Positions 13,901-60,325 of a DNA stretch of 64,000 bases are shown here, piece by piece; positions within the stretch are counted from its first letter, which is position 1; each line of letters begins with the position of its first letter. The stretch covers positions 20,958,001-21,022,000 of the forward strand of contig CM075987.1 in assembly GCA_038087875.1 (NCBI GenBank). The letters run 5' to 3'. Position numbers and translations under genes: made by a program. The DNA comes from Malacoraja senta. Its lineage: Eukaryota. The notes below the pieces were generated by a model. That model searched no databases. It was not told the DNA's origin and worked only from the letters and a program-made list of their open reading frames with translations.

Positions 13901-16900
13901 TAGGGTCAGTCAGTAGGTCAGTCAGTCAGTCAGTCAGTCGGTTGGTCAGTTGGTTATTCAGTCAATCGGTCAGTTATTCGGTCGGTCGGTTGGTTATTCG
14001 GTCGGTCGGTCGGTTATTCGGTCGGTCGGTCGGTTATTCGGTCGGTCGGTCGGTTATTCGGTCGGTCGGTTGGTTATTCGGTCGGTCGGTTGGTTATTCG
14101 GTCGGTCGGTCACTTTTTCGATCTCATTTTCTAATTAGTTTAATTAATTAATGTGCAACTTTTGGCACTGACGAGTTATGACTTCCTTCTCAATTATATT
14201 TTATCTAAATCTGTGCAAAATCTCATGTAATTCCGAGACATGGGTCACAAAAGTTAAATTCTAGACATATTTTCGATGCTCAGCCCGCAGCCTAAGAGGT
14301 ATCCACACATAAATGTCTGAGAGTTAGCTCAACTGTGGAGAGCTCTGGAAAGAACTGACAACAACCGAGTGAGGTGGAGGACATTTGTCAATGGCCTATG
14401 CTCCCGAGAGGAGCAAAGGGCTTAAGAAGAAGAAGAAGAAGGAGGCAGACAGATGAAGCAAGTAATGGTGGCGATCCCGGCATATACTGATCAACATGAA
14501 CATAGAAAATGGGTTTATGGGTCAGCAAGCCCCTACTCCCCTTCCATAGACCACAAAATATGTCATACCGACCTCACTGATTTTCTTTTCCAAGCCTCTA
14601 TCCCTTCACATGCCTTTTCCCATCCAGTATTTTTTCCAGATCAGCAGAAGCATTGGGTCATGGAATTGATAACATGAGAATGTAGGAAAAATAGGAAAAA
14701 AGCTGCAATCCAATTCAACAAGATCAATGCCTGTTCCTGCCCTATTTTGATATCCCTTGATTTCTCCAAAGACCAGAAACACATGAATTTCTGATGTGAA
14801 GGTAATCAGTGACTTGTGCAGAGAATTCTGAACACAGCCCACCCTTTCTTTTGAAGATAGACACAAAAAGCTGGAGTAACTCAGCAGGACAGGCAGCATA
14901 TCTGGAGAGAAGGAATGGGCGATGTTTCGGGTCGAGACCCTTCTTCATGCTGCCTCACCCGCTGAGTTATTCCAGCATTTTGTGTCTACCTTCGATTTAA
15001 ACCAGCATCTGCAGTTCTTTCTTACACATTTTGTCCACCCTTTTCTTTATTTTACTGTGAGGCTGTGATCCCCAGTTGTAGACTCCTCGTCGAAACATCC
15101 TCCCTGCTTTCATCCTGTTGAATCATCGAGCCGTACAGCACAGAAACAGACCCTTCAGCCCAACATTCCACGCCAGCCCAATTCTACAGGGCTAGTACAT
15201 TTGCTTGCACTTCGCCCATAGCCCTCTAAAGTATTCTCTGAATTTTGTGCATTTCAGTGAGATCGACCCATTCTTCTAATCTGTAGAATCCAGGCCTTGT
15301 TAACTCAATAACTTTAGAAAAATCTACCATCTTGGGGACCAATTTGACGCATCTTTGCTGCTCTACTTCTGTAGCAAATGTATCTTTTTTTGGATAAGGA
15401 GACGGGAATTGCACACGATACTCCAGTGCGATCTCACCTGAGCCCTGTATAATGGTGGTAAGACATCTTTACTCTTGTACTCAAATCCTCTGGCAATAAA
15501 CAGCAACATACTATTAATCTTCCGAAATGCTACCTGCATCTGCTTGTTAGCTTTCATTGACACACAAGTTCCTGTGAATATCAATATTTCCTAATTTCTC
15601 ACTATTTAATAAATAGTATTTCTGTTTTTTGTACCAATGTAGATAACCTCACATTTTTCCACAATGTATTCCATTTGCTATGTTGTTGCCCCTGTACTCG
15701 ATGCCAAGGTTTAAAACGGGTTGCTGCACACATGGAGAGGCATGTTCAGGCATTTGTGGAGGCAATGCACAACAGATGTGTAAGATGCATTGATACATGA
15801 CATGTGCACCTAGTGTGGGCTACCCTCACGGAAAAGCAAATTAGTAGAGGAAGCATCAAACTAATGTTAGGCACTCAAACTACAAATGCAAGGACATTAA
15901 ATCAGCCATGGACCATCAATTCCTCTTTAGATCTCTATACCAAAAAGAAGAAAGCTATATTTCTGTGGAGTGTGCAGGTGAACATTTTGGATGTTGCTTC
16001 AAAAAACCTGCGGGGACGTGGACTTACCATCAGAGCCTGCGATCCCTTGCCTGCGGATTCCAACATCGAGGAGCTCGCAGTCTCGTATAGAGGCTGATGT
16101 CGGGAAGCTCCAGTCGCAGAAGGTTTCGACCAGCCCCAACCCGGGGTAGATCGCCCAGCGCGGGGGAGCTGAGATTCTCCCCCCCCCCCCCCTGATACAG
16201 GAGGTTGATCGCCCCGACACGGAGGGCCCGCCGGCGACTACGGGAGTTAAGATCGTCCCGTCAATGGAGGGCCCGAGGCCCCCGACCGCAGGAGAACAAA
16301 GAAGGGAAGAGATTGAACTTTATTTCGCCTTCCATCACAGTGAGGAATGTGGAGGAGTCACTGTGGTGGATGTTTATGTTAAAATGTATTTTGTGTGTTT
16401 TGTTGCTATTTATTGGTATGACTGTACGGCAAATCAAATTCCTCGTATGTTGCAAAACATATTTGGCTAATAAAGTGATTATGATTATCGAGTTGTTCAT
16501 TTGTGGTTTAAATTATAATAATTAAGAACTGGATGTATTGAGCATGTTAAAGTTGAAGAGAAAGACTAAGGCAAATTCCTAGCCTGCACCACTGGATGTA
16601 CTACACAGTCTCTGCCTCCAAAATCATTCCATACAAATCATCAACGTGACCATATATCACCTGGGGATGCATTTTAAGGTCAAAGTGTTCACAATTCAGA
16701 GAGTCTCTGATTGGGTTAAGGAAGGAAGATGACAGGGTATATATGAACTAAAATGTAAATTAATTTTGGAATCAGCAGAGAAGGTTTGAATTCCATGTTC
16801 TCTACATGACAGCATTTTCATGTGAGATTAGTGATGGCGTCAGTCACAATGTTAGGTGAAAAAGTTTTAAAAAGCCATATTTCTTTAACATCTGTACGTC

Positions 16901-19900
16901 CCGGCTGATGAAGTGTTTATCTGAGATGGAGCCACTGTCACAAAGTACGGAAACAATGTGCAGGTCCTCACCAAGTTAAGAATGCCTGATTTACTTGCCA
17001 CTCATACATACAAAAGAGCATTAAGGAGACAAGCGGGGTGGATGAAATGACTGCTGTGGGGCCATAGGCATCTGCCGCCATGTCGGATCTTAGTTTGCAA
17101 CAATATCTGAATGGTTGAGTTAAACGCCTCTGTTTAACCACATGTTGCTCTCATTTGGCCCATGTTTGTACTTAAATATATTGCTGGCTAGTCGACTAAA
17201 TTCTGTTTAGTTTACAAGCAGTTCTCAAGAACGGAACAAAGTCGTAACCTGGGGAGGAACTTAGTTGAGCTAAGAAAATCAACAACAATATATATTGTGG
17301 TGTTAGCTGATGGAGAAAGTTTGGCTGTGGTTGTGGAAAAAACTCCCCCGCTCTTGGTGCAGCTATTATGGGATGTTTTACATCTTTCCTAGGGGCTTTT
17401 GTTCAAGGTCTCATACAAATAAAAAACTATTCTTACAAATTTAGCATCCCTCCTCTTCTTCCTCAGCGCTGGCCTGCTCCATCCCAGTGCCTCAGGAAAA
17501 TTACCGTATAGTGCAAGGCAAATAGGTTACACTAGTATTTCCGATAATCTGATGGATTGTGATTTCTGAAGTTATATTTCTGTAATTCTAAAGAGGGCAG
17601 GAGAGAGACTGCAAGAGGGGTGAATTAGTATCTTTCTCTTCATTCTACCTTTTGTATGTGTTTGGCCTGTATGTATTCATATATAGTGTTATCTAATTTG
17701 ATTGGAGTGCGTGTAAACAGTAGACATGGCAATAAGCTTAAACCTAACTATAGGAATACATACAAAAAGCTGGAGCAACTCAGCGGGTCAGTCAGCAGCT
17801 CTGGAGAAAAGGAACAGCTGACGTTTCGGTTTGCGACCTTTCTTTCGACTGAGAGTCAGGCGAAAGGGAAGCAAGAGATACAGACGGTGATATAGAGAGA
17901 TACGGAGCAACTGAATGAAAGATATGCAAAAAAGTAATGATAATAAAGGCAACATGTAGTTGTGGCCTTGGTGAAAACGAGTTACAGACAATGAAACTCA
18001 ACAGGATAACAGTGAAACAGTATAACAGTACAACGACTAGGATGGGGGAGGGAAGGAGAGAGAGGCTATGCAAGGGTTACTTGAAGTAAGAGAAACCAAT
18101 ATTCATACCGCTGGGTTGTAAGCTGCCCAAGCGAAATATGTGGTGCTGTTCCTCCAACTTGTGTTTGGCCTCACTCTGACAGTGGAGTTGTACATAGTTG
18201 TGAGATACACACCTTTGTCAGGGTTGCAGGTTCCATGGTGGTTGCAGATGCAGGGGACGCAGGGAGCCAGTGGCCCTCCAAAGAGGATTTCCCGCTTGTA
18301 ATCGGGGGCACAGGACTCGCAAAACTGTCCGATATATCCTTCCGGGCAGAAGCACTCCTCCACCCACGCAGCAGGAGGTGAGAGGCCAGCTCGGGCTGTC
18401 ACCAAGGTAACCTCTCTCAGGTGAACTGTGGCAGAGAGCAGAAAGCAGAGATCAATCGGAGATACAGAAAGACAGAAGACAAGGACTTCCCGCCTCGGAT
18501 CTGAATTACCACGCACACCGAGCCTACTTGGCAACTGTTCAGGATTCACCCAGTCTCCAGCAATTCATGATAATGACTTGGTCTTTGGGGCTTGGTTCAT
18601 GCACAAGGGTGCAGACTTCATCTTGTACACACCCGTCCCACCTCACAGGCAAGGCCTCAGGGTGATCCTGGAAGACCACTTCCAGCTCCGTCATCATTGG
18701 CACTGACCCAAGGATAAACGTGTAAAATGCTAGAAACATTCAGCAGGTCAGGCCGGATCCATGGAGGCAGAAACATAATTGCTGTTTCAAACCAACATTT
18801 CATTGATCTGAAACAATTACAGGTTCTCTCTCCATGGATGCTGCCTGACTTGCCGAGTGCTCATTTTCATCATCTGCACTTTTTTGCTCCAAATGCTACC
18901 CACAACTATCCATTAAAGTTGTACACATCTCAGCATACACGCATGCACTCCATTCACACACACGGACTGACAGAACGCACTTTCCAGGATCTCATCCAGA
19001 GTTTTTCCAGTTGGGGTAGTATTGTGCAGAGATGTTGGGCTTGAAGATAATTTTTATTTTCTAGGTGTTTATGGTCAGGCTAATTAGTTCCCATGCTTCA
19101 GGGAATGAATTGAGGAGAAACTGGAGCTTAACATCTACCAATGTGCTCAGACGCACGCACCTCTGTACTGCAGCTCACTATCCAAGTGGGAGTGATATTG
19201 GCTCTGGAGTGGAGGCAGCAAGGATAGAATAGTTTCCTATTCCTCTGGTGGGTTAGCTGCACTCCGTCAGGAAGTCTGTTGGATGGATGAAGAGGAATCT
19301 GGAGTAATGGCAGATTCTTTCTTGACCCCAATTCACACAGAGATGGGAGTCTGTTGAAGGCCCTGTTGGTTGCAGAGTTGTGGCTTGCATGTCATCATGC
19401 GGCAGAGGCAGAATGGAGACAAGTTTCTGAAGCAGCCAAATTTGAGCATGATTTTCCAGTGTCCCGCTGGCCAACCATTGCACATGGCCTTTTCTAGCCA
19501 AGACGTGTCCATTTGTTACAGACACACACGTCGACATGAAAGCACACGTGCAAACAGCTGTTGAGGAGTTTATCATACAGACTGGGTCACAGGCAAGGTC
19601 ACTTACAGGAAGAAGCCCCGAAGCAGCCAAACCTCACAGCGGTGAGATTGGAGAGCAGCTGTTGAAACCGGGAACTGGATGGGGTTGGAGTGAAGGTGCT
19701 GTTCTCTGCTTCATGGAGTCTATTGGGAAAGAAGAACAGAAACAGTTACAAAGTTACAAAGCGATCAGCCCATACAGAATCATTCAAGCAATCCAGGGTT
19801 TTCATCTCAGCTCCATTCCCAAGTTCTCTCCATGTATTTATCACCACAGTGTAAAGATTCAATGCCGGCTTGGCCTGCTGTCCCCTCATCTTACTTTCTG

Positions 19901-28900: not shown

Positions 28901-31900
28901 CACTGGGAGTGAGTGCTGCTCCAGTTAATCGTTCACATCCATTGGTAATGGAGAAATGGTCATATTTCAAGGAAAAATTAGAGAAGGCAAAGGACATTCA
29001 GTACCTTGAGCCCGTCATTCAAACTGATTATGACTGATCATCTATCCCAATACCATATTGGTTGCCTTGCCAACAATCTGTCTCGTCCATTTCTTCTTTG
29101 TTGTTTTATAGTATGTGTTAAATGTATGTTTTTTGTTCTTTAACCTGTTTTATGTGGGGGGTTGGGGGAAACTTTTTTAAATCTCTTACTACGACGGAGA
29201 TGTGATTTTTTTTCCGTATCGTATCTCTGTCCGCACTGCGGCCTAACATCGAGGAGCTGGTGCCTCTGCTGGAGATCGACTTCGGGAGCTCCAGCCGCGG
29301 GAGCCTGTGGACTTAACATCGTGGAGCTCACGGTCCCTGGTTAGAGACCGGCTTTGGGAGCTCCAAGTCGCATGAGCTTCGACCGCCCCGACCCGGGAGT
29401 TTCGATCACCCTGACGCGGGAGTTTCGATCGCCCTGACACAGGAGTTTCGATCGCCCTGACGCGGGAGTTTCGATCGCCCTGACGCGGGAGTTTCGACCG
29501 CCCCAACCCGGGAGTTTCGACCGCCCTGACGCAGGGGCTTCAACCGCCGGCTGCGGGAGCTTCGATTGCCCCGACTCGGATGGTTTGACTGCCCCGACCA
29601 CGGGAAAATAAAGAGGGAAGAAGATTGGACTTTATTGCGGACTTCAGTGAGGAATGTGGGGAATCCGCTGTGGTGGAACGGTATGTTAATTTTTATGTAG
29701 TTGTGTGTCTTGTTGCTTTTTTTAATATGGCTGTATGGTAAATCGAATCTCACTTACCTCAATTGGTACATGTGACAATCAAAGACCTTGAACCTTGATA
29801 TTGAATTCTTGATCTCCCATTTTAGCCCCAGCACTTTTTTTATCTGCACTTTCTCTTTACCAGTAACACTATATTCAGCATTCTGCTTTTTTTCTCTGTT
29901 GTATCTGATGTACTTATGCATGTTATGGTTTACCTAGATGGCACACAAACAACATTTTTCACTGTATCTCACAATATTGAGTGACTAAAAATAAAAATTG
30001 AGAACATGTGTTTCTTTTGTACGAGCCTAATCTATCCCCCAATTCTAATGTTGGCCTTAGCTGTTAAACAATGATGGTGGGTCACTTTGTCATTGCCATT
30101 ATAATGGCTTAGCTTGAAAGAAAAACATCCTGTAACATCGCTTCTAACACAGGATTGAAATGGAAATTCTACAAATTTGGCATTATACAAAATCACAATA
30201 CGTATGGTTTTCCAGTATCACATCCCCTGCTACTTCCGCTATAGGCTGTATTATGAATAGGGGATCAACAAGCACTGATCCCCACAGACTCCTGTCTGAT
30301 ATCTCAAAAAGTCTCAATTAATCCTATGTGTAAGAAGGAACTGCAGATGCTAGTTTAAACCAAAGATAGACACAAAAAGCTGGAGTAACTCAGTTGATCA
30401 GGCAGCATCTCTGGTGAGAATGAATGGGTGACTTCCTTATCTCTTTATCTCCCTCTCCCCTGACTCTCAGTCTGAAGAAGGGTCTCGACCCAAAACGTCA
30501 CCCATTCCTTCTCTCCAGAGATTCAATTCAATTCCTTTATTGTCATCTTGCAAGCAACAGTTGTGCAGTGCAAAACGAAAAGACGTTTCACAGGGAATAC
30601 TGGAGCATCGCACATGACGTTTAAAACATTTCACACATAATAATAACAACACTAAAACAATCCAGTCCCTGATGGAACAGTATAAGTTAAAATAGATACA
30701 AACAACGTTAAAGTACAGTAAGACCAATCATAAACATGTCCGGGGTGGCTGATTTGAGTGGCCAGTGCCAGTTATTGAACTGGCCAGTGCCAGTTATTAC
30801 AGTGTCCGTGCCAAGCCGCAGAATCAGGTGACTGTGAGTACAGAGTGGCTGTTTAGCAGCCTCACAGCATATGGCAGGAAGCTGTTTAGCAGTCTTGTAG
30901 TCCGGGCTTTGATGCTGCGATATCTCTTGCCTGATGGCAGGAGATCCAGGTGTATGTGGAGGGGGTGCATTTTGTCCTTGGCAATTTTTTTAGTTTTTTT
31001 CTGACAGCGGCTCAGGAACAGTTCTTGTACCGAGGGTAGGGAGATGCTGCCTGTCCTGCTGAGTTACTCCAGCTTTTTGTGTCTATCTCCAATTAATCAT
31101 ATTCTCTGTTTCCTGTATATCAAGCAATGTTCACTCCTTACCAATGCAATGGTCCCAATACCATGTACTGTCATTTACACACTTAACTTTTGAAGCAGGA
31201 CTTCAACAAAGAATTTCTGAAACTCCAGGTACTTCACTTCCAATGGTTTTCCTTTACTTATTCTACCAATTTCATCCTCAAAGAAACTCCAGTGGGTTCA
31301 TCAAATACATTCCCTTTTCATAAATCCCATTGATACCTTCCAATGTTCCGTTACCATTTTCCAATTGCCGATGCTAATGTATCCAGTCTATAGTTTTCTG
31401 TTTGCATTTCTCTCTCCTTATTTAGTGGGGATACACCTACCACCCTCCAATCTCTGGGAACAATTTAACTTATAGAATTGGGGAAAGTGATAGCTATGTT
31501 CCTGACCACCTCCTTTAGTACTCTGGGTTGTTTTCAAGCTTGTGGATTTAGTGGCTTTTAGTGTCATTAATTTCTCCAATACTTTGTTTGATTAATATTT
31601 CCTTTGACTCACCTTATACACTTAGTTAGCTAACATTTCCGAACTTGTGAACTCTTTGCACACTCTTCGTGGAGACAGAACCAAAGTAGTTGTTTAATTT
31701 ATCCGTCATTTCCCTATTCCACATGATGAGTCCTAGTTTCCAGTTCTAGTGGGCTTGCCCTTCACTAATCGTTATCTATTTACATACTTACGTGAGCTTG
31801 GACGTTCCAATTTTATGTTCCATCCAAATTTATTTTTTCGTAGTTTATTTTTGCTCCCTTAATCGATTTATTTGACCTTCTTTGCTGAAATCTAAATTGC

Positions 31901-37900: not shown

Positions 37901-40900
37901 AGCGCAGGACCTGGGGATCCTTGAAGAGATCGTCGCCAAAGGTGTTCAGTCGGTTTAAGGAGATGAGCAGATCAGTGGCCGTCACCCATTCCTGCAATGA
38001 AAGAAACACACCTGGTCAGAAAGTAAAGGCAGGAAGGATTGGGAGTGGGGGGAGGGTAGTGCAAAGCGGACGAGGGGGGTGCAAGGAGGAGGAGGGGTCA
38101 GGGTAGAAGAGGGGCAGGGTAGGAAAGGAGGGAGCAGGGGAGGAGTAGGAAGGAGTCATAATTGGGGATGTTGGAGGGGGGAATTGGAGAGGTTACGTAG
38201 GAGAGGGAGTGAGCAGAGGGAGTGAGCAGAGGGGGTGCAGAAGAGGTTAAAGGGTGGATTGGAGAAATTTGGAGCGAAGGTTTGGAGAGGGGAGGTAGGC
38301 GAGGATTTTGGAGAGGGAGTTGGAAATGGGGGCATGAAGGGGTAGGAGAGGTGGATAGGAATGGAGGTTGGAGATGGGTAGTAGGAGGGGGATAGGTGAA
38401 GAGGGTGGAGGATGGATATGTGAGCAGGTTGGAGGGGTTGTAGGACAAGGGAGGGGGAGAAGGAGAGGAGTGGGGGAGGGAAAGAGTGGGAAGAAAGAAT
38501 GAGGGGGAGGAGAAGGGAGGGAAAGGTAAGGAGGGGAGATAAGGTGGCTGGGAGAGTGGGGGCTAGGAGAGGGGGAGGAGAGAGTGGGCAGAAGAGGGAG
38601 TGTAGGAGAGGCAGCTACAGCCCCCTCTGTACCCAGATGTGTGGGCAGCAATGGACTGAATTTCCCCGCGATCGGTAAGCACCTTCTGAATGGATGCTTC
38701 CATGCATCCTGCCTGTTGTTTCAGGAGTGTTGACTGAAGTGCAGAGGGTGGGCTAGTGGTGGGCAACTACTGACAAACCATGGTCCCGTGAGGATGGGGA
38801 TCGGGAGCTGCTTATCTGCATGAATGATGGACAGGCAGGCAGTAACGTGACCTGCAGAAGCACTCAGACTGTCTGATCCTCCCAGAAGGGTTCAGTACAT
38901 TGTGTAACTACTACACAGCCAATGAAAACAAATCATGACGTGAAGCATTTATTGCACGAGGCCAGGAGAGCAGGGCACAACCTCATGTCCGACTTTAAGT
39001 TCACTCACGGGACACAAACAAGCTGACCTTCCGTGACTGCCTCTTGTTGCCAGGGATGATAGGTTAATGGACAATGAGTCTATAAAAAGTAATTAGAGCA
39101 CTAAAAGTGCTTGTGTCCTCTGTAAGTTATTAAAAGTACTCGAAAGGACAGAACAAGCAAAAATGATCCGATTCTGCATGAAAGATAGACACAAAATGCT
39201 GGAGTAACTCAGAGAGGCAGGCAGCATCTCTGGAGAGAAGGAATGGGTGACGTTTCGGAGATGCTGCCTGCCTCTCTGAGTTACTCCAGCATTTTGTGTC
39301 TATCTTTCATGCAGAATCGGATCATTTTTGCTTGTTCTGTCCTTCTTCAGACTGAGTCAGGGGGGAGGTAGATACAGAGATAAGGAAGGGTGAGGTGTGA
39401 AAAAATCCGATGGAAGACGGAAGTTCGATTCTGCATACTTGTTTCACGACTGGCTTTAATGCTATTGTAAAGGGTGAAAAAGTGGGGGGAAAAAGGAGCC
39501 AAGAGCGGCACGGTGGCGCAGCGGTAGAGTTGCTGCCTTACCGCGCCAGAGGCCCCGGTTCAATCCTCCTGACTACAGGTGCTGTCTGTACAGAGTTTGT
39601 TCGTTCTCCCTGTGACTGCATGGGTTTTCCTCAGTTGCTCCAGTTTCCTCCCACACGCCAAAGATATACAGGTTTGTATATCTTGTTAATTGGCTTCGGT
39701 AAAAATTGTAAATTGGCACTAGAATGTAGGATGGTGCTAGTATACGGGGATCACAGGTCAGCGTGGACCCGGCATGCCGAATGGCCTGTTTCCACGCTGT
39801 ATCTCTAAACTAAACTAAACTAAAATAAAGCTCATACAATAAAACCCCCAGCATTGTGCCAGCAGAGTTGTGGCCATCACTGTTGTGTAGCAAAGCCAAA
39901 CCCCAATGAGGTGAATTATAAGTACAAGACATCTGACAGTAAATGTTCTCTCCCTAAAAAAACGTCTAACAATAAAAGCAGAGTTGCTGTATCCAGAAGA
40001 AAAGAGGAAGATTCCAAGTTCTTCAGTTTCATTTTGAGTATTTGCCACTGGCATGGACAGGTTGGAGGGAAGGGGCATCAGACTAAGCCAGATCGCAAGG
40101 CCACAACATTCTTCTCGTAACGTAACAAAAGCAATCATCTATACAGTGCCTCCAATGTAGCAACAGACCCCAAGGCACTACAGAGGAACAATATCAAAGG
40201 AAAATGTTCAGTCGCAAAATATAAACACTGGAACAGATGTCGAAATGTTTGGCCAGAGTGGTGGGTTTTCAGGAACATCTTGAAGGAGAAATAGAGGTTG
40301 CACTGTTTTGGGAAGTGTTTCTGGAGATTCGGTCAGGGAATGAACAACGAACGGCTATTCCACCCTGGAGCCTCCAACATTGCAATGAGGGATTTGCTCC
40401 ATCTATCATTATTTTTACACAAGTGTGAATCTCCTACTCCTCAGTCAATTTATAAATAGACTCACAATCAGTGACATGTCTTTTATCTTTTTGTAATTTG
40501 GTAAGTGTGTCAGGCAAACAGATTGATGATCTCTCAGCATAGGGTCCAAGACTGAAAAGATCTCTCTCGATAGAGGCAGCCAGACTTTCTATTTTCTTGT
40601 TATCTTTTGTTTTATTTGAGATTTCGAACACCACGGTAATTAACCTGTAATTATGGCTGAGATGACTGCACCAAGTCTAGCGGGGATATTATGGACACCA
40701 CACAAACAGGTAAACAGAAATTCTGGAAGTTTTGATTTATTCAGTATCTGGAACCGTGAAAAAGCGTACTGGTTTCTTGGTGGTCTGACGTGACGAAACT
40801 AAAATGAAACAAGGCAGATTAGCAAATTTCTTGAACTATTTCCTTTCCCTTTCAGAAAATCTGCCTTTAACTTGAAAACATGTTCTGGTTCATAAAAATT

Positions 40901-43900
40901 AATGCCTGCACTTGTAGATAACTTTCAGCACATATAAATTATATAGGGGTTGTGACTGCAGTTTCTTTGAAGATGCGCAAAGAAAAGTTGATGGAGAGGG
41001 AACCTGCAGATGTAACGTTATTTAGATTTCGAAAAAGAATTTGGCAAGAGTCCAGTGCATAAATTAGGAGGTCAAGATACTGGAGGAAGTGTGTTAACAT
41101 AGATCAAAAATTATATCACATAGTTATCAGTAAAAGGAACCAGATAGTGGATTATTATCTACATGGAGAGAGACTGCAAATGTGCAACGTTCAGAGGGAT
41201 CTCGGTTCTTCGTACATGAATCACAACAAGTTGGCTGGCAGATCCAGCAAGTAGATAAGGCAGCAAACAATCTGTTGGTTTTATTACAAAGGGGCTGGAG
41301 ATGAAGAATAGTTTCAATTACATAGGAGGTTGGTATGGGCACGCAGGGAATAACATGCACAGTTTTAGTCCCCTTATCAAAAAAGGGTCTAGTGACATTA
41401 AAGGCAGTCCAAAGAAGATTCACCAGGTTAATTCCTCAGATGAGATGGTTGTCCTTTCAAGAGAGGTTGGACAATTTGAATCTATATTCCTTGGAGTTTA
41501 GTAGAATGAGTGATGACCTTATTCAAAGAGGCTTGACATGGGAGATGTTGAGATGTTTTCCAAGTGGGAGTCACAAACAAGGGACCAAAGCTACTAAAAT
41601 AAGGGGCCGGTCATTTCAAACAGAGGTTTGTCGACATTTCTTCTCTCAGGGGATAATGGCTCTCTGGAATTCTCTGCTCCCAAGGGTGGTGGAGGTCAGG
41701 TCATTACATATTATTTCAGCTGGAGAAAGATAAATATTTGAAAAATCAAGGGATTGAGGGTTATGGGGAACTGGCAGAGATGAAGAGTTGGGGGTAGCAG
41801 AGATCAGCCATGATCTGAAGAAGGGTCTCGACCCGAAACGTCACCCATTCCTTCTCTCCAGAGATGCTGCATGTCCCGCTGAGTTACTCCAGCATTTTGT
41901 GTCTATCTTCAGCCATGATCATATTGAATGAAGGGGCAGGGTTCAGGGGCAAGTGGGTACACCTGGTCCTGTTTTCTTGCATTCTTGTGACGGTGAAACC
42001 TGAAAAGAGGAAGGCTATTTTCTATCCATGGAAGTGTTTTGCATTTCACTGGCCTTTGCAGATTTTTTCCCCCCATTTATAATTGCAAATATGTGAAATA
42101 GAGGTCAATTTATTCCCTTTTTTTAATTTTATTTTTTTAAATTTTTATTTTTATTAGAAGTACAATTGTATACAATCATATTTTCATAATACCTTTTATG
42201 TACAGCTTCTTATTTAAAAAAAAAATTTGAAATAAAGAAGAAAAAGAAAAAAGTTAGGTAATGAAAAATAGAAAAATGTGAGATATATAGTGTGTGAAAA
42301 AGAAAAATAAAGAATGAAAAAAGAAAGTTGAGACATAGAAAATAGAAGAAAGAGAAGAAAAGAAGAGAAGAGAAGAAAAGAAAATAGAAGGAGATCATTT
42401 ATAATCTTGACCATCCGCAGTCACGGATTAGCTTTTACACCTGTTTTGCACCATACGTTTCCAAAAAGACGACAAATGGAGACCAACTCGTTATGAATTG
42501 GTCAAATTTATCTATTAGGAGGAATCGCATTTCCTCAAGATGTGCGGTATCCAACATACTTGCAATCCACATTTTGAGCGTTGGTATTGGTGTATTTTTC
42601 CAAAATTTCAATATTATTTTTTTTGCTATTATTAAACCATAATTAAAAATTGACTTTTCAGATGAGCTCAATTTGTTCCCGTCTTCCATTACCCCAAATA
42701 TAATCAATTCATTATTTGGTTCCATTTTTGTCTTAAATAATTTTGTAAATATTTCGAAAATATCACTCCAAAATCCATGAAGTTTTATACAAGAAACAAA
42801 AGAGTGTGTTATAGTTGCGTCTTGGGTTAAACATTTATCGCAAATGGGCGATATATTTGGATCAATTTATTCCCAACTGTGAAATGATTAATTAATGAAG
42901 TATAAACATATGAACAAGTGACAAAACACAAATTGTGGAAGAGGTAAAGAGAGAAACTGGAAAAAAAGCATTGAAAAAAGTTAGAGTAAAAAATACATCT
43001 TAACAAGTACATGTTGTAACAAAGTGTTTCATTAGTAAAACAGTGAATATCTATCTCAAAGCTGATAATGAGAAACAGCTAGGATCCAGAACCCAGTGAG
43101 TCCACAGAATTTTGATCATGTCTTTATGTACATGAGTAGAAATATTAAAATATGTTTACGTGAGGCTGAAATTAAACATCCCATGTGAGAAATGATTAGG
43201 ATATTTTATTTGGACCTCTCCTCAAAAGACTTTTGTGTACATGGGTTGAAGTAGCGGAAGGCACTGCTGCCAATGGTGCAGTGATTAAATTCAAGGGGGA
43301 GCTAAAGGCCACAGTTAGAGAACAAGACTGTCTAAGAGAATTATAGTGCTGGGAAAGATGGCAGTGATAGGGTGAGACAAGACGTAATAAGAAGGATAAA
43401 GGATATTTCAGAACGCAGTAAGTTCCAAAGCACTTCATAACCACTGATCTACCGATATAATGTAGGAAACGTGGCAGCCAATTTATGCACAGCTAGGTTT
43501 TGCAAGCTTAAATGTGCTAATGACCAACAATCTAGTTTAGTAAGAAGATAGACACAAAATGCTGGAGTATCTCAACGGGACAGGCAGCATCTCTGGAGAA
43601 AGGAATGGGTGATGTTTCGGGTCATGACCCTTCTTCAGACCCGAAACACATCACCTGTTCCTTTTTTCCAGAGATGTCTACTTTCGATTTACCAGCATCT
43701 GCAGTTCTTTCTGAAACATAGTAATGGATGGATAGTGGCCATTTGACTTTAGGGAGAGCTCTCATGCATCTTCATGATGCACTGACAATATGTTAATTTA
43801 CAACCACCAAGAAGGGCAGGTTTAGCCTCAGGTTAAGGGCAGCATTTGCAAGACATAGCCAGTTCTGGCACTGGGAGTCTCGGACTGGACTACGTGCTGA

Positions 43901-45657: not shown

Positions 45658-47484
45658 CTATAATAAAAAAGAAGAGAAGAAAAAAAACTTCCATCTCTGC
45701 TCGGTAACATTTGTAAACTGCACCACCTTTCTTGTGGCCAGTCTTTGGTGATGCATTGCCTGGACACAGCAGCCAGCTTTGTGTTGATGGGAGGAGGCAG
45801 GTTCAGAAGAATTTAAAATGATGGATATTTAAACATATAATCATATAACAATTACAGCATGGAAACAGGCCATCTCGGCCCTTCTAGTCCGTGCCGAACA
45901 CTTACTCTCACCTAGACCCATCTGCCTCCACTCAGACCATAACCCTCCATTCCTTTCCCGTTCATATACCTATCCAATTTATTTTTAAATGATAAAATCG
46001 AACCTGCCTCCACCACTTCCACTGGAAGCTCATTCCACACAGCTGAGTAAAGAAGTTCCCCCTCATGTTACCCCTAAACTTTTGTCCCTAAATTCTCAAA
46101 CACTTCACCTCATGTCAAATCCTTCCATTGCCTTCCTCATTCACAAACTCTGCAACCAACTGTAGCCCAACAAATGACCCAGGTATTCGCACTCCTCAAA
46201 TTCAGCCACTTGGGTAGCACTCACTTTCATTGCTCAGCATTGACAGCCGTGCCTTTTGGATGGATAGGCCCTTAGCTCTGGAATTATTCCCTAAACCCCT
46301 ACATGAGCTTACATCATTTTTAGTTTGATTATTTTCAGCTGACGGACCTAGTGCCTTTCTGCTATGGCAAATAGGCTCTGTTAATACGTGTAGACACAAG
46401 GAACTTCAGATGCTGGAATCAGACCTGAAGAAGGAACCCAACCCAAACATCACCTATCTACGTAGTGCAGAGATGCTGCCTGACCCGCTGAGTTACTCCA
46501 GCACTTTGTGTTCTACTCTGTAAATACCTGGTGCCGCCGGAGACGATGGAAGCTGGAGCAAAAAACTCAGTGGGTCAAACAGCATCTGTGGAGACAAAGG
46601 GATGATCCATGTTCTGGATGCACTCCCTGCATTGGGAGTGAAAGACTGAAAGTAGAGAGGGATGATAGACAGTATATAAAAAATAAATGATAAGGAGAGA
46701 CAGGTGGTGGGAGGGAGGGAACGATAATGCCTCCGCATCTGCTTCCATTTATCACCTACCTCACCCCTCCCTCTCATGTCTGAGTACTGGCTGTCTTCTC
46801 TCTCAGTCCTGAAACAGGCTCTCAATCCTAGGCTTGGACCATCCTGTTGTCTCCACAGATTCTGCGTGACCTGCTGAGTTTGTCTAGCAGTTTGTTTTTC
46901 GCTACATTACTCATTCCACTCAGGGCATGGAACCTGCAGAACCCTGTTCCAATTTGGGCCGTGGCAGAATCCCACAACTGGCAGGACGTTTGCTTCCCCA
47001 GCACCGCTTAAAGGGATCAGTCATGAGTCAGCTGGTCGATGATCACTTCCAGCTGTTGGATAGTGTACTCATGTGTTCGATCAGAAGTGCAAAATGCAGC
47101 TTAGAAACTTGTTGGTGTTGTCTCTTACGTTAGTGGCCTCGACAACAAGCTGCACCCTTCGTGGGTGGGTGATAAATCTGTATTGGGATGGAAACTGAGA
47201 GGGGCAGCAAGGAAGAGAGCCGGAGCAGCTGTGGTGCCCTACTGAATAGAAGGTCTGCAGTGTTGCTCCACAAACCTCACCAAGGGATGACCTTCACGTT
47301 ACCAAGCAAGGTGTTCTCACGCTAAGCCTTCTGCTAGAGCAACGCGAGACTAACACAAGGGCAAGAAACTGTCTCCTTGAGACTGCCAAAGTCAACGTCA
47401 CCCTGAACCTTTACAACAAAGGGTCCTCGCAAACCACCACAGGAATGTCCGCAGTTCCATGTTATCCTTGGCCAAGATATCAAG

Positions 47485-48485: not shown

Positions 48486-49951
48486 ATGCCTGGAAAATGT
48501 CTGGAACTGGGGGACCGGTATCAGAGCAAGGGATCAGTCATTCAGGGCAGGAAAAAAATGCTAGACCCCGAGGGCAGTGATTCTTCATCTAATTAATCTG
48601 GAGAAGGGCCCCAACCCGAAGCGTCACCTATCCATTCCCTCCACAGATGCTGCCTGACCCGCTGAATTACTCCAGCACTTTGTGTTTTAATTTAATCCTG
48701 TTGATTCTAACAGCTCGACTTGACAGCCTTAATACTTAAAATACAACTGTTGCTCCATCATAACCTTTTTTATTATTAATGGTACAGGGATATTCTGATC
48801 AAATAAGAAAGGTTCCCAAATTAATATTAATAACAGCGCAGCAGCAATCAAAGAAAGCAACTTGAAGGAAATGAGCAGATGATCAATCGACCACTGGCCA
48901 CAGAGTCAGGGGGATCGCAGCCTAGACAATCAGTGGGCCACCACACTGATCTTCAGAGTCCAGACAGCAACAGACGTGGTTTAAAAGGCGTGGGTGTAAG
49001 TTTTATTTACTTTGTGTTTAAAATTTCAAAAGGCACAATTCCAGATAGAATTCTCCGAATATTTTTGGCACACAGTCGATCTATCCAAACCTCCTACACA
49101 GTTTGCTTATTTAATTGTAAATGCAATATGTCAGCGTGAGTGTTAGTGGAACTCTGTACTATGTTTAAACAAGTGAAACATCGTCAAATCGAAAAATCAT
49201 TCAACAGTTACAACCCCAAAGAAGGCCATTCGACCCATCACATCTGCGTTGGTTCTACTCCAGCAATTGCCTAGTTCCACACATTGGTGCCGTTAATTTC
49301 CACCTCCCCTGTAATTCTCTTGCATTTACAACCCACCATGGCATATGCTGTCTTTTTCCTTGCTTTTGCCTTCTACTGTTGATATTTTGTTATTCAGGGA
49401 GATCTGGATTTGTTAGATATTCATTTGCACCTCATTGGCAGGTGCTTCAGCTGCACCAAAACCATCTTGTCCTTCAAGACAGCTCACTGTTCACCTACCC
49501 CATTAAGCCTGTCAACTCTTGGTTTCTTATCTGAGCCAGAGCCAGGCTCATCACAATAACTGTTAAGGCATTAAAAGCCACATAGCCCTTTGAGTCCATG
49601 CCAGCGATTTGAAGAGCAACACCATCTGCCCCATTCGCCTGTTTTCCCCACAGATCTGCTATTCACTTTTCAGTGCCCATTCAATTCTCTTTTGAAAGAA
49701 AGACACAAAGTGCTGGAGTAACTCAGTTCTCAACATGTTCTCCAGAGATACGCCTGACTTGCTGCACTACTTTGTGGGTTTTTTTTGTAAACCAGCATCT
49801 GCAGTTCCATGTTTCTCCCTTTTGAAAAACCTCATTAGTTCCGGCCATCATCCATCCCTGCAGCAAGTGAGTTCTGAATTTTAACAAATTTACTGCATTA
49901 CAAAAAAAAAAATTCTTTACAACTCAGTATCATTTAACCATCTCTACAAAT

Positions 49952-50148
49952 ATGTCGGAAGCAACTGCAGATGCTGGTTTAAACCGAAGATAGACACAAA
50001 AATCTGGAGTAACTCAGCGGGACAGGCAGCATCTCTGGAGAGAAGGAATGGGTGACGTTTCGAGAGAAGGAATGGGAAACGTCACCCTTTCCTTCTCTCC
50101 AGAGATGCTGCTTGTCCTGCTGTTACTCCTGCTTTTTGTGTCCATCTA
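49952..50148. mobile_element. Palindromic PLE-derived element
   Basis: Same family, inverted arms with a rearranged centre. Confidence 0.75.
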
Positions 50149-50654
50149 CAAACGTGTCCACTGGTCCTTGAACCATTCAGAAATGGATATAACTCCGACC
50201 TGGGTTTTGTAAAGACTCAACATACAGTAATCTCTTTGCTTTTGAACCCTGTGCTTCCATTGATATACCACAAGACGTCACATTTTTCACTAGCCACTCT
50301 CTCAACCATTCATGCTACATTCAAAGATGTATGTTCATGTACACCCAGGTCCCCTTGTTACTTCATATCTTTGGAATTATGTCGTCCACATTTTTTTTAT
50401 ATCCTCTTTCTGCTAAAATATATCACTTCACTCTTCTCCCTATTAAATTTCACCTGCGACATACATGACCAATCTGCCAACATACCTTTGCCCTTTTGTT
50501 GTCTGTTCCTGTCCTTCTCTCCTCAGTTTGGTATTATCTGCAATTTTTTTATTGCTCCCTAGTACGGTCGTAGCCGGTCAGTAACAAATATCAAAAAAGT
50601 GGTGATTGTGAGGAACCCAATCAGAACACTATGCGTACCATCCTTCAGAAGATT

Positions 50655-57914: not shown

Positions 57915-58465
57915 AGATTTCAGTTGCCTGTCGATTTTTTTCCCACTTCACTGCACTCTCTGTTTGTGTGATCCAACACAGCCCAATGCAAGCTCAAGGA
58001 ACAAGATCTCATCTTCTGACTAGGCACTTTAAAGCCTTCTGGAATTAACACTGAGTTCAACAATTTTGGATAATGCACAAATCTCAGATTTGCAGGAGCT
58101 TTCCCATCACTTTCCTGGCAGTAATTTGCATGTTTTCCATCTCCTATTTATTCTCCTCCAGATCTACCACTTGTCTTCACTAAAGCCTTTGCAACTAATC
58201 TTTCATCTGTCTGCCCATCCCTTTAGTCAATTCATCTTTTCATGTGTTTCACTCTGTCACAGATGTTCCCTTTTAGTTTCTCCTCCATTCTGCATTTTCT
58301 TAACAACATGAGGATTGTTTTGAATCAAACGTTTCCCAGGCCTGACGAAACCTCATTGGCCTGAAACATTGCTCTGTTTCTCCCCCAACAGACACTGCCT
58401 GGTGAGCATCTCCAGCTTTTCATGTTTTATTTAAGATTTCCAGCATCTGCCGTTTTTAGCTTTTG
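57915..58465 (+). mobile_element. Older Penelope-like element 3' fragment
   Basis: QCKLKEQDLIF*LGTLKPSGINTEFNNF, then a CTGACGAA...CTGAAACATT hammerhead-like relic at about 58341-58370 and a CCAGCATCTGC tail. Confidence 0.65.
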
Positions 58466-60094
58466 GAAGAACATAAAACATAGATGACAGGACGCAGAAC
58501 AGTACAGCAGCGAAACAGGCCACTCGGCCCACAATGTCCATGCTGCACATAATCCCAAGTTGAACTAGTCGCCTCTGCTCCACATCCTTCCATTCCCTAC
58601 ATACCTATGTGCCCATCTAAAGCCTTCTCTGTTTCCACCACCCCCCCTGGAATTTGAAATGATTGAATCTTCATAGTCAGAAAATGAATAAAACGATAGC
58701 CTGATGAAGCTAGAATTCATGTAAGTTAACTACTAATAAATCCACAAAGAAATTCAGGAGTATTTACCAAGGGAATGGTTAGGTGGTGGAACTTTCTACA
58801 TCAAGTAGTTGAGGTGAATAGAAAAGATGATTTTGATGATAAGCTTAGCGAGTGTAGGATTAGATTATGTTGATGGTTCATTGAAGAGAGTGAGAGAAGG
58901 ATTGTGTGGAGATAACATAAGTGGGTTGAAAAGAATAACCTAAGTATCATGTACTCTTAGTATCATGTACTAACCCAATGTACATTTCCATCTGTATCCA
59001 GGTTGGAGGGGTGGGGGTGGGCTTGGGTCCAGGGACTTACAGTGAAGGAAGAGATGATGGGAGATTTGCACTGTCCTGTCAAAGGCCCTGCCATGGGGTC
59101 AGAGGTCATAGATGCAGTGAGAGACCACCCTGTCAGCTTCCTCTCTGGGACATTGCTGTCCCATTTCTTCGGTGATTTACTGTTCCCTCAGGATGTTGAT
59201 GTAAACAACAGTAGTCCCCACACAGTCCTAATGTGATCTTGCCCAGTGCAAGAGCCATCATTCATTTCAAGCTGGGCCAGGAAGGAGACAACAGTTCAGG
59301 GTTGAGATGAAGGACAGAAAAAGTTGCTGGATTCTCAATACTTATATCCTTCCTCACCCTGACACCCTGAGGCCCTCTCCCCAATTCACCTCTACCGCCC
59401 ACACAAAGTTCCCCTACTTTCCTTTGCACCGATGAAGGTAACCTTTCTCTTCCTCTCCCTCTCTCTTCTCTCTAACTTCTCTGTCGGCTCCATGATGTCT
59501 GGCTGTATCATTCCATCCCTTGCTGTCTCACAAAGTCACCACTCTAACCCCCAACATCCACCATTGTATGAATCTGCCTGACCGATTACCCTGCTTTGAG
59601 ATTAAAAAGCCCTCAGACATCAGCACGTTCTCTGTGCAACAAACAACACATTTCTACGGCATCTTCAACATTCCCATTCAATCCGGCGTAATGATTGTTA
59701 AGCAAAGGATCACAACAGCCAAGATTTACCCCTTCCTCCTGTTCCATTTTATATATATTCATTCTCAGGATGTTGCCAGCAACCTTGAAAAGATGGTGTT
59801 AACTGATGGGTGGTAAAGCGAGTAAAGATGGCAAGTAAGTTTCAACCCTGTTCATTTGAAGGGAAGTCAAGGCCTAGAATGGGTGAGGAATGTGTTGTGT
59901 GTGTGTTCCAAACATCTAACTGGTTCCTTAATGCACCTTTAGCCAGAGAAACCCGCTGTACTTACATGCTCAGTCACAAGTAATAACAACACCTTCACAC
60001 AGAGACTCACGTCCTACGCTAGAACGAAAAAGGGATGATTAATAAATGCCGGCAGCAACGCCCATATCCTGAGAACTTAAGTGAAATGATTGCT

Positions 60095-60325
60095 TAAAGT
60101 TAAGGTAGACAAAAGTGCTGGAGAAACTCAGCGGGTGCAGCAGCATCTATGGAGCGAAGGAAATAGGCAACGTTTCGGGCCGAAACCCTTCTTCGGCCCG
60201 AAACGTTGCCTATTTCCTTCGCTCCATAGATGCTGCTGCACCCGCTGAGTTTCTCCAGCACTTTTGTCTACCTTCGATTTTCCAGCATCTACAGTTCCTT
60301 CTTAAACAAACGCAATAAAGTTAAG
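60095..60325. mobile_element. Palindromic PLE-derived element
   Basis: Perfect 83-bp arms at 60102-60184 and 60192-60274; TAAAGTTAAG duplicated at 60095-60104 and 60316-60325. Confidence 0.85.

What the first reader, a model, noticed from the sequence alone, without database searches (positions are those of the whole stretch)
41804..41920. Dispersed minimal hammerhead-ribozyme motifs carried by Penelope-like repeats throughout the LAMC3 introns
Seen: about 20 copies of a short repeat contain all or part of CTGAAGA-A-GGGTC-TC-GACCC-GAAA-CG-TC. It is intact at 41815-41842, with variants near 3600, 4065, 6400, 14930, 17830, 23300, 30475, 43620, 46430, 48605, 58345 and 60180. This matches the hammerhead core CUGANGA / helix II / GAAA / NUH, with helix III reduced to a palindromic A-CG-U (AACGUU in the 60 kb subfamily). 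Established: Penelope-like retroelements carry such minimal type I hammerheads in their pseudo-LTRs, and these have been proposed to cleave as dimers. Inference: this genome has amplified a ribozyme-bearing non-autonomous PLE derivative to roughly one copy every 3 kb. Gene annotation would not show it, and repeat tools could mislabel it as a MITE.
Basis: partly seen in the sequence, partly recalled or inferred. Interest (0 to 1): 0.78.

Follow-up and report, generated by a model that had tools for sequence, protein, structure and literature searches.

The report
Penelope-element repeats carrying minimal hammerhead motif
The short repeat is the terminal piece of a Penelope-like retrotransposon that carries a minimal hammerhead-ribozyme motif, a known kind of element that is extremely abundant in this genome and mostly decayed in this window.

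Summary
CTGAAGAAGGGTCTCGACCCGAAACGTC lies at 41815-41842 and is flanked, with a 66-nt tail, by a 12-nt target-site duplication. It occurs 18,728 times exactly in the 1.94-Gb genome, against 0 for the backwards control. A three-change variant occurs 19,101 times.

The Penelope-like element (PLE) reading also holds. Longer copies have a reverse-transcriptase and GIY-YIG endonuclease frame upstream. One 3.9-kb copy carries the motif in both direct terminal repeats. The copies show 5' truncation, head-to-head inverted partners and two 3'-end classes about 35 nt apart, all PLE hallmarks.

The motif fits the published PLE "min-HHR" in core, helix II, extra nucleotide and palindromic helix III. Helix I is only 2 bp. 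No Rfam hammerhead model matches. Covariation is absent, and core conservation is only modestly above that of neighbouring sequence.

Copies do not start at the predicted cleavage site. They start about 3 nt before the motif. Only 1 window copy is intact. Catalysis is untested. Verdict: a known kind, new member, low to moderate interest.

The parts
41804..41815 (.). Left copy of the 12-nt target-site duplication TCAGCCATGATC. Its last C can also be read as C3 of the motif.
   Evidence: Read directly. The same 12 nt recur at 41909-41920.
41815..41842 (+). Intact minimal hammerhead motif. It reads CUGAAGA (C3-A9), an unpaired A, helix II GGGU/ACCC with loop CUCG, GAA (G12-A14), then A-CG-U (15.1, 15.2, 16.2, 16.1) and C17. 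The predicted cut is after 41842.
   Evidence: It is the only window hit of the strict descriptor. The exact string occurs 18,728 times in the genome, against 0 for the control.
41843..41908 (+). Variable linker (41843-41863) and conserved tail block with the AUGCUG...CAGCAU inverted repeat. It ends at the short-tail 3' end.
   Evidence: 3' end classes come.
41909..41920 (.). Right copy of the target-site duplication.
6320..6499 (.). Head-to-head inverted pair. The sense copy has its motif at 6399-6426 (G12 changed to A). The antisense arm is 6320-6404.
14831..15030 (.). Head-to-head pair. The motif is at 14921-14948 (-), 2 mismatches, and the inverted arm is 14947-15030.
17753..18187 (-). 5'-truncated PLE 3' end. 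It holds the endonuclease C-terminus (18187-18089, ending ...[19 protein letters not shown]), about 225 nt of 3' UTR, a decayed motif (17847-17820) and the tail.
   Evidence: tblastn; sequence and translation; alignment.
30323..30522 (.). Inverted arm (30323-30432) followed by a sense copy. The sense copy has PLE 3' UTR upstream and its motif at 30472-30499 (G12 changed to A).
39144..39344 (.). Perfect 87-nt inverted repeat (arms 39144-39230 and 39258-39344). It is made of tail plus 41 nt of non-PLE flank and interrupts a minus-strand motif.
43528..43677 (.). Head-to-head pair. The motif is at 43611-43638 (-), 3 mismatches.
49939..50160 (.). Head-to-head pair. Both arms are truncated inside the motif, and one arm has the long tail.
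60080..60320 (.). Head-to-head pair of the second variant (GGGTTTCGGCCC ... GAAACGTT). The motif is at 60169-60196 (-), with U4 changed to C.
57981..58440 (+). Old, diverged PLE 3' end. It holds the endonuclease C-terminus (57981-58064), a motif-like stretch around 58330-58370, then a tail-like sequence.
   Evidence: tblastn; sequence read. The profile did not detect it.
3532..3632 (-). Diverged copy starting at the motif (3599-3626).
4056..4153 (+). Solo copy starting at G5 of the motif.
46424..46525 (+). Diverged copy starting at the motif, preceded by an inverted piece of the long tail.
48592..48694 (+). Diverged solo copy starting at the motif (48598-48625).

Best explanation
The repeat is the terminal repeat (pseudo-LTR plus 'tail') of Penelope-like retrotransposons. 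These look Neptune-like, judging from a CxxxxCxxC linker before the GIY-YIG domain.

The unit begins about 3 nt (AGU) before a minimal type I hammerhead motif. It runs through a variable linker and a conserved hairpin block. It ends at one of two fixed points about 35 nt apart.

Copies were made by target-primed reverse transcription that starts at those internal sites. This left variable-length target duplications, 5' truncations, and head-to-head pairs made by a second, inverted, truncated copy. These features are shown from the sequence.

The following steps are inferred. The motif is the PLE hammerhead. If it cleaves at all, it does so after GUC (41842), only when two copies pair through the ACGU palindrome, and probably only with protein help, as published for other PLEs. 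In this lineage cleaved RNA was not the usual template. Most short copies are solo terminal repeats, made when reverse transcription started at the 5'-proximal start site and ran to the RNA's 5' end.

In this window the copies are neutral, decaying relics in laminin-gene introns and flanks. Only one is intact. I put about 0.9 on the PLE identity and about 0.45 on real self-cleavage of intact copies.
For: Abundance: the exact 28-mer occurs 9,309 + 9,419 times in G000, against 0 for the control. A second variant occurs 9,770 + 9,331 times.

PLE coding context:
- L013 has a GIY-YIG match of 22.7 bits (cutoff 22.6), and L006 has RVT_1 at 26.2 bits, E 7.8e-6.
- Homologous frames lie upstream of the motif in many of the loci searched.
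- Two of these are inside the window, at 18187-18089 and 57981-58064.
- L052 has the motif plus tail at 330-467 and at 4260-4369 in direct orientation. The repeats are 92% identical over 104 nt. RVT_1-like (26.9 bits) and GIY-YIG-like (21.0 bits) frames lie between them.
- The RT query has 22,954 first-look candidates in the genome.

PLE insertion hallmarks, as listed by Craig et al. 2021 (passages) and Frangieh et al. 2024 (parts 1-2):
- 5' truncation: 46 of 85 de-duplicated fragments start inside the unit.
- Adjacent inverted 5'-truncated copy: 14 of 43 in the unbiased sample and 6 of 30 exact-motif loci.
- Two 3'-end classes about 30-35 nt apart: 42 short and 31 long of 85.
- Variable-length target duplications: 12 nt at 41804/41909 and 10-11 nt at L020.

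[quoted passage not shown] All are present.

Constraint:
- The two amplified variants differ at three positions (loop 2; 11.4, turning U-A into U.G; and position 17, C to U). All three are positions the hammerhead rules tolerate.
- At non-CpG sites, core plus stem columns are 8.8% non-consensus, against 18.8% in the adjacent linker (one-sided Mann-Whitney p = 0.002) and 13.4% in the tail block (p = 0.055).

Other organisms: contigs from runs of four coded organisms hold exactly 41810-41920 thousands of times (13,156, 4,943, 21,314 and 96 contigs laid), with head-to-tail and opposite-strand joints.
Against: No Rfam hammerhead family matches at gathering score on the whole window. None matches at E up to 10 on 41700-42000 or on L052:250-520.

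Helix I is only 2 bp (U2.1 with A/G1.1, G2.2 with C1.2), whereas the published min-HHR families have 4-5 bp.

Covariation is absent. 83.7% of cells are paired, against a shuffled mean of 85.0%, and there is 1 both-sided change, in helix I only.

Genome-wide, A-to-G variants of the exact 28-mer are nearly as common at four core positions as at three free or compatible positions. The core count is (19,715 - 18,728)/4 = 247 per site. The free count is (19,608 - 18,728)/3 = 293 per site. Most variation is therefore post-insertion decay.

Thermodynamic folding does not favour the active fold. The monomer minimum free energy is -7.2 to -10.1 kcal/mol and uses a competing pairing of GAAGAAGGGU with the linker. 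The hammerhead fold scores -3.9. The designed dimer scores -12.7, against -21.1 for a helix-II-swapped duplex.

Only 2 of 85 fragments start within 1 nt of the predicted cleavage site, while 39 reach the motif's 5' edge.

Three of the four Pfam scores are below the curated cutoffs.

The conservation test uses copies that are not independent, and a profile seeded on exact-motif loci. One search suggests little bias from this.
Confidence: 0.85

Rival explanations
1. The short copies descend from a dedicated non-autonomous, retrozyme-like element. This would be tandem motif-plus-tail units that are transcribed, self-cleaved, circularised and copied by PLE enzymes. It is the first reader's reading, as opposed to solo terminal repeats or truncated ends of autonomous PLEs.
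For: Of 43 motif-bearing copies in the unbiased sample, 20 end at the motif's 5' edge and 14 meet an inverted arm there. Only 9 continue into PLE 3' UTR, so the short unit has sharp ends of its own. Contigs of other organisms show head-to-tail joints from 41909 to 41814: 5 contigs in X1 and 2 in X11. A 2026 preprint argues that vertebrate non-LTR retrozymes derive from PLE pLTRs and reports them in its one chondrichthyan genome (Results section read).
Against: No tandem array of the unit is in the window. None of 73 examined copies has a direct tail adjacent upstream. The two same-strand close pairs inspected are internal duplications, not unit tandems. The unit's ends coincide with the ends of the direct repeat of a 3.9-kb coding copy. 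No excess of copy starts is seen at the cleavage site.
Confidence: 0.15
2. The motif is a non-catalytic or vestigial module of the PLE RNA 5' end. It might be a dimerisation or protein-loading site, or a hitch-hiking 'parasite' motif, and the hammerhead resemblance no longer implies cleavage.
For: Helix I is 2 bp, and the unit starts only about 3 nt before C3. No excess of copies starts at the cut site. The predicted dimer is strong through the self-complementary helix II: -21.1 kcal/mol, against 2 x -7.2 for monomers. Frangieh et al. 2024 report that ribozyme mutants do not affect insertion in vitro, that no RNA-seq reads end at the cut site, and that their PLE protein is predicted to be a dimer. 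Craig et al. 2021 raise the possibility that HHRs simply parasitise PLEs.
Against: All core nucleotides are kept in both amplified variants, and their three differences fall only on tolerated positions. Core and stems are more conserved than the linker. The same Frangieh paper shows protein-assisted cleavage with the expected C3/G8 mutant and rescue behaviour in another PLE.
Confidence: 0.2
3. The repeat is a foldback or MITE-type DNA transposon whose arms happen to contain a hammerhead-like string.
For: Many copies are inverted pairs, some nearly perfect: 87 nt at 100% at 39144-39344, and 60080-60320.
Against: The arms are unequal and their junctions vary. Solo arms have target duplications of 10-12 nt. 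3' ends are fixed while 5' ends are graded. The same module ends RT/GIY-YIG-coding elements, in direct orientation in L052. No tRNA-like part was found.
Confidence: 0.02

Closest known systems
Minimal hammerhead motifs (min-HHR) in the pseudo-LTRs of metazoan Penelope-like elements (Cervera & de la Pena 2014, PMC4209133, parts 1-2 read; Lunse, Weinberg & Breaker 2017, seen only as a citation in PMC6765202)
   Same: Same core boxes, G10.1-C11.1, unpaired nucleotide after A9, helix III reduced to a palindrome (ACGU) that could pair only between two copies, position in both terminal repeats of a PLE, thousands of dispersed solitary copies, and pairs on opposite strands.
   Different: Helix I is 2 bp here, against 4-5 bp in their consensus families (2 bp in their D. 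virilis variant). Helix II is 4 bp with a tetraloop, against 6-8 bp. Sequence variety is very low: two 28-mers of about 19,000 exact copies each, whereas they stress extreme variability. The motif lies within about 3 nt of the unit's 5' end.
Poseidon PLE of Anolis carolinensis (PAc; Frangieh et al. 2024, PMC11167929, parts 1-2 read)
   Same: pLTR-ORF-pLTR layout with a hammerhead motif. 3' ends fall at two nearby internal sites, giving an optional 30-40-nt tail. No evidence that cleaved RNA is the template.
   Different: In PAc the ORF start codon lies in stem II. Here the open frame begins after the tail (L052:464). The linker motif here suggests the Neptune clade rather than Poseidon, but that assignment was not tested by phylogeny.
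Non-LTR retrozymes of animals (Cervera & de la Pena 2020, listing only; Li, Clavereau & Pollet 2026 preprint, abstract and Results read)
   Same: A short non-coding unit with a type I hammerhead, related to PLE pLTRs.
   Different: Retrozymes are tandem arrays giving circular RNAs. Here the copies are dispersed, solitary or head-to-head, and no unit tandem was found in the 300 kb examined.
Rfam hammerhead families
   Same: Same catalytic core nucleotides.
   Different: No match even at E up to 10. The curated models expect real helices I and III.

Membership tests
PLE minimal hammerhead (min-HHR) | Core boxes CUGANGA ... GAAA ... UH in type I order | tested here: met
   41815-41842. The strict descriptor gives 7 hits in 264 kb, against 0 in reversed sequence and 0 in 5 shuffles.
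PLE minimal hammerhead (min-HHR) | Helix II of at least 4 bp closed by G10.1-C11.1 | tested here: met
   GGGU/ACCC with loop CUCG. The second variant has GGGU/GCCC with loop UUCG.
PLE minimal hammerhead (min-HHR) | Unpaired nucleotide between A9 and G10.1 | tested here: met
   The A at 41822. It is A in 56 of 59 covering copies at that column of the raw 102-hit alignment. The feature is named in the paper.
PLE minimal hammerhead (min-HHR) | Helix III absent or minimal, with palindromic 15.2-16.2 allowing dimers | tested here: met
   A-CG-U, and AACGUU in the second variant. Dimer formation itself was not tested. The designed dimer gains only about 3 kcal/mol.
PLE minimal hammerhead (min-HHR) | Helix I of about 4-5 bp between the 5' flank and the sequence after the cut | tested here: not met
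   Only U2.1-A/G1.1 and G2.2-C1.2 pair. 2.3 and 1.3 are A and C. The unit begins about 3 nt before C3.
PLE minimal hammerhead (min-HHR) | Compensatory changes and covariation among families | tested here: inconclusive
   One search shows no excess over shuffles. The two amplified variants differ only at tolerated positions, a rough chance of about 0.04 by my own count of tolerated transitions.
PLE minimal hammerhead (min-HHR) | Lies in the terminal repeats of a PLE | tested here: met
   L052: 330-467 and 4260-4369 flank RT-like and GIY-YIG-like frames.
PLE minimal hammerhead (min-HHR) | Self-cleavage after H17 | not testable with these tools
   No raw RNA reads were offered. Contigs cannot show ends. 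The genomic copies give no sign of it.
Rfam hammerhead models | Score at or above gathering threshold | tested here: not met
   no hammerhead hit even at E up to 10.
Penelope-like elements | One coding region with a reverse transcriptase followed by a C-terminal GIY-YIG endonuclease | tested here: met
   RVT_1 scores 26.2 and 26.9 bits (both below the 29.6 cutoff). GIY-YIG scores 22.7 bits (above the 22.6 cutoff) and 21.0 bits (below it). In L052 both lie in one copy, in that order, across frameshifted frames. All E-values are between 4e-4 and 5e-6.
Penelope-like elements | Pseudo-LTRs, frequent 5' truncation, adjacent inverted 5'-truncated copy, and an optional 30-40-bp tail | tested here: met
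   The features are as listed in Craig et al. 2021.
Animal non-LTR retrozymes | Tandem head-to-tail arrays of a hammerhead-bearing unit | tested here: not met
   None in the window, and 0 of 73 copies has a direct tail adjacent upstream. Head-to-tail joints do exist in contigs of other organisms.

The most novel reading that the evidence does not exclude
The 100-135-nt unit is exactly the terminal redundancy of the PLE RNA, from its 5' end (3 nt before the hammerhead core) to the internal reverse-transcription start sites. Most of the short copies would then arise because the enzyme starts at the 5'-proximal start site and runs off the RNA end, not by random truncation or from a separate non-autonomous master. 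In this lineage the hammerhead module would not process the template. It would instead serve as a self-complementary dimerisation or loading site for a dimeric RT-EN.
Probability: 0.2. Interest if true: 0.55.

Novelty: new member of a known kind. Interest (0 to 1): 0.3.

Why it matters
PLE hammerheads have been known since 2014, and their role is still open. This genome adds a very large and unusually uniform family: two 28-mers with about 19,000 exact copies each.

Its fossil record bears on that open question. Copy starts pile up 0-3 nt before the motif and not at the predicted cut. That agrees with the in vitro finding that uncleaved RNA is the template.

For annotation, it explains a large class of palindromic, MITE-looking repeats in gene introns as PLE ends. 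For the laminin gene in this window it has no evident functional meaning.

Tried and rejected
Rfam scans found no hammerhead and no HDV-like or other ribozyme family.

The whole-genome DNA search with the 93-nt unit returned nothing because very common words are skipped. I used pattern searches instead.

For RNA evidence, no RNA holder was listed and no raw-read run was offered. The four runs I laid are contigs whose RNA label is a guess, so nothing can be said about expression, ends or strand.

The covariation count showed no signal.

ViennaRNA folding of monomer and dimer does not recover the active fold.

I considered a tRNA-derived SINE and dropped it, because ARAGORN finds no tRNA-like gene in the window.

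I considered a MITE or foldback reading and rejected it (see rivals).

I considered cleavage at the unit's 5' boundary by a type III-like or HDV-like arrangement. I dropped it because only 3 nt separate the boundary from C3 and no such Rfam match exists.

The 484-aa open frame next to an inverted motif in L051 proved to be low-complexity repeat, not PLE.

Earlier-findings look-ups returned nothing.

Literature: Lunse et al. 2017 is not held. A text search for the 28-mer and a 20-mer of it, as DNA and as RNA, found 0 papers. A search combining Penelope, hammerhead ribozyme and cartilaginous-fish terms gave nothing relevant among the 15 listed. I did not establish the organism.

Supplementary figures of Cervera & de la Pena 2014 (their descriptor and family logos) were not seen and could bear on the helix I comparison.
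Full report
**What is there**

At 41815-41842 (+) the window reads CTGAAGAAGGGTCTCGACCCGAAACGTC. A 66-nt tail follows it. The whole 93-94-nt insert is bracketed by a 12-nt direct duplication, TCAGCCATGATC, at 41804-41815 and 41909-41920. The insert sits inside another interspersed repeat.

With up to 3 mismatches the 28-mer occurs 5 times in the window, against 0 in 100 shuffles. A blastn of the 93-nt unit gives 35 matches. A profile built from 30 genomic copies gives 37 fragments in the window. By my count, 22 of them hold all or part of the motif.

The one near 58345 is very diverged and was seen by eye only. Only the 41815 copy passes a strict minimal-hammerhead descriptor. In the 264 kb scanned, 7 copies pass, against 0 in the reversed sequence and 0 in 5 shuffles.

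**Scale**

The window is C11:20958001-21022000 of a 1.94-Gb assembly. The exact 28-mer occurs 9,309 + 9,419 times there, and the backwards control occurs 0 times. A second form, CTGAAGAAGGGTTTCGGCCCGAAACGTT, occurs 9,770 + 9,331 times.

I de-duplicated the 200-kb flank, because it contains a 56.5-kb stretch repeated at 99.8% identity. The window plus the remaining flank, about 207 kb, holds 85 fragments, or one per 2.4 kb.

**It belongs to Penelope-like elements**

In the 30 loci cut around exact motifs, 14 continue upstream into a few families of conserved sequence. In one family this is the end of an open frame about 100 nt upstream, ending ...[25 protein letters not shown].
- Pfam finds GIY-YIG in L013 (22.7 bits, cutoff 22.6) and RVT_1 in L006 (26.2 bits, E 7.8e-6, below the 29.6 cutoff).
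- tblastn with these frames finds relatives upstream of motifs in many loci. Two are in the window: 18187-18089 (-), followed by about 225 nt of 3' UTR and a decayed motif, and 57981-58064 (+).
- The RT query has 22,954 first-look candidates in the genome.
- In L052 the motif plus tail occurs twice in direct orientation, 3.93 kb apart (330-467 and 4260-4369). The repeats are 92% identical over 104 nt.
- Between those repeats lie RVT_1-like (26.9 bits) and GIY-YIG-like (21.0 bits) frames.

An RT followed by a GIY-YIG endonuclease between pseudo-LTRs defines PLEs; this rests on established knowledge and on the passages. A CxxxxCxxC stretch before the endonuclease in L013 suggests the Neptune/Nematis type described. 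I did not test this by phylogeny.

**Insertion anatomy**

The copies show the PLE hallmarks listed by Craig et al. 2021.
- 5' truncation: 46 of 85 fragments start inside the unit, spread evenly along it.
- An adjacent inverted 5'-truncated copy: 14 of 43 in the unbiased sample and 6 of 30 exact-motif loci. Window examples are 6320-6499, 14831-15030, 30323-30522, 43528-43677, 49939-50160 and 60080-60320.
- Two 3'-end classes about 30-35 nt apart: 42 short, 31 long and 12 other, of 85.

The last feature matches the optional 30-40-bp tail that Frangieh et al. 2024 trace to two internal reverse-transcription start sites. In L052 the long tail is simply the continuation of the element's 5' region.

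The 5' edge is sharp. Of 43 motif-bearing copies in the unbiased sample, only 9 run on into 3' UTR. Twenty end at the motif, and 14 meet an inverted arm there. A few of the 20 keep a short stretch of 3' UTR and are misfiled. About half keep AGT before C3.

The direct repeat of the 3.9-kb copy starts at the same place, within about 10 nt. The short unit therefore equals the element's terminal redundancy.

I infer that many short copies are solo terminal repeats, made when synthesis began at the 5'-proximal start site. Recombination between the two repeats, or a separate short master, cannot be excluded. The head-to-head pairs may reflect the priming from both target strands that was reported for another PLE. 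That too is inference.

**Is it a hammerhead?**

Reading the motif by standard numbering:
- CUGAAGA is C3-A9, followed by one unpaired A.
- GGGU/ACCC is helix II, with loop CUCG.
- GAA is G12-A14.
- A-CG-U is 15.1, 15.2, 16.2 and 16.1, and C is position 17.

Cervera & de la Pena 2014 give four features of PLE min-HHRs that their search did not impose. [quoted passage not shown] The last three are met here. The motif's place in both terminal repeats also matches their description.

Results against the hammerhead reading:
- Helix I is only 2 bp, because both flanks are pyrimidine-rich and the unit starts 3 nt before C3. Their D. virilis variant also has 2 bp.
- No Rfam hammerhead model matches, even at E up to 10.
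- The covariation count on 34 copies shows nothing above shuffles: 83.7% paired against 85.0%, with one both-sided change.
- Folding favours a competing pairing of GAAGAAGGGU with the linker, and a helix-II-swapped duplex.

Evidence for constraint is modest.
- At non-CpG columns, core plus stems are 8.8% non-consensus. The linker is 18.8% (p = 0.002) and the tail block 13.4% (p = 0.055). The copies are related to one another, and the profile was seeded on exact motifs. One search shows that truncated copies, not diverged ones, account for the missing motifs.
- The two amplified forms differ only in loop 2, at 11.4 (U-A becomes U.G, which pairs only on the sense strand) and at position 17 (C to U). 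All three changes are tolerated.
- Against that, A-to-G variants of the exact 28-mer are almost as frequent at core sites (247 per site) as at free sites (293 per site). This is what decay after insertion would give.
- CpG decay has hit G12 and the 15.2-16.2 pair in many copies.

**Does cleavage feed retrotransposition?**

If cleaved RNA were the template, copies should begin at the base after GUC. Only 2 of 85 begin within 1 nt of it, while 39 reach the motif's 5' edge.

The two close same-strand motif pairs I inspected are internal duplications. Their joints lie 7 and 3 nt after the cut site, not at it.

This agrees with Frangieh et al. They report that ribozyme mutants did not affect insertion, that no RNA-seq reads ended at the site, and that cleavage needed the element's protein.

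**Other organisms**

Contigs from runs of four coded organisms cover just 41810-41920, thousands of times each, with head-to-tail and opposite-strand joints. The family is therefore shared beyond this assembly. Whether those runs are RNA is only a guess, so they say nothing about expression.

**Verdict**

The interpretation as a PLE-borne minimal hammerhead motif is supported. A dedicated non-autonomous derivative, helix covariation and catalysis are not shown.

This is a new, very abundant and unusually uniform member of a known kind. In this window the copies are decaying relics lying in and around a laminin-type gene, whose EGF exons are on the minus strand. The LAMC3 identity was not tested.

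Noticed in passing
window 39144-39344: A perfect 87-nt inverted repeat with a 27-nt spacer. Its arms contain PLE tail plus 41 nt of non-PLE flank, and it interrupts a minus-strand hammerhead motif between CTGAAGAAGG and CGAAACGTC. It looks like a template-switch or fold-back event at insertion.
   Followed up: partly
L031-L036 vs L041-L046 (C11:20758530-20815085 vs 20858001-20914532): 56.5 kb repeated at 99.8% identity about 100 kb apart, just upstream of the window. This is either a recent segmental duplication or an assembly artefact.
   Followed up: no
window 6918-28314, minus strand: Seven open stretches match Pfam laminin EGF domains, so a laminin-family gene runs on the minus strand. Which laminin it is was not tested.
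   Followed up: partly
window 41500-41810 and 41921-41970: The intact copy is nested in another interspersed repeat. Parts of that repeat (41744-41776, 41920-41941) are also held at depth by contigs of other organisms.
   Followed up: no
L053 and L054 (C1:3601600-3602250, C1:3997250-3997600): Two hammerhead motifs lie 173 nt apart in L053 and 38 nt apart in L054, on one strand each. These are internal duplications whose joints lie 7 and 3 nt after the predicted cleavage site.
   Followed up: partly
G000:C1:5164104-5164160 and C1:8231934-8231990: Exact copies of the second motif variant lie head-to-head with a single base between them, forming perfect palindromes centred on the motif's 5' edge.
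   Followed up: no
window 13938-14111 and 29374-29579: Minisatellites with 20-nt and 23-nt units (8.7 and 9 copies), unrelated to the PLE repeat.
   Followed up: no
L051:1207-2658: A long open frame next to an inverted motif copy is a low-complexity tandem repeat (Cornifin-like Pfam hit), not part of a PLE.
   Followed up: partly
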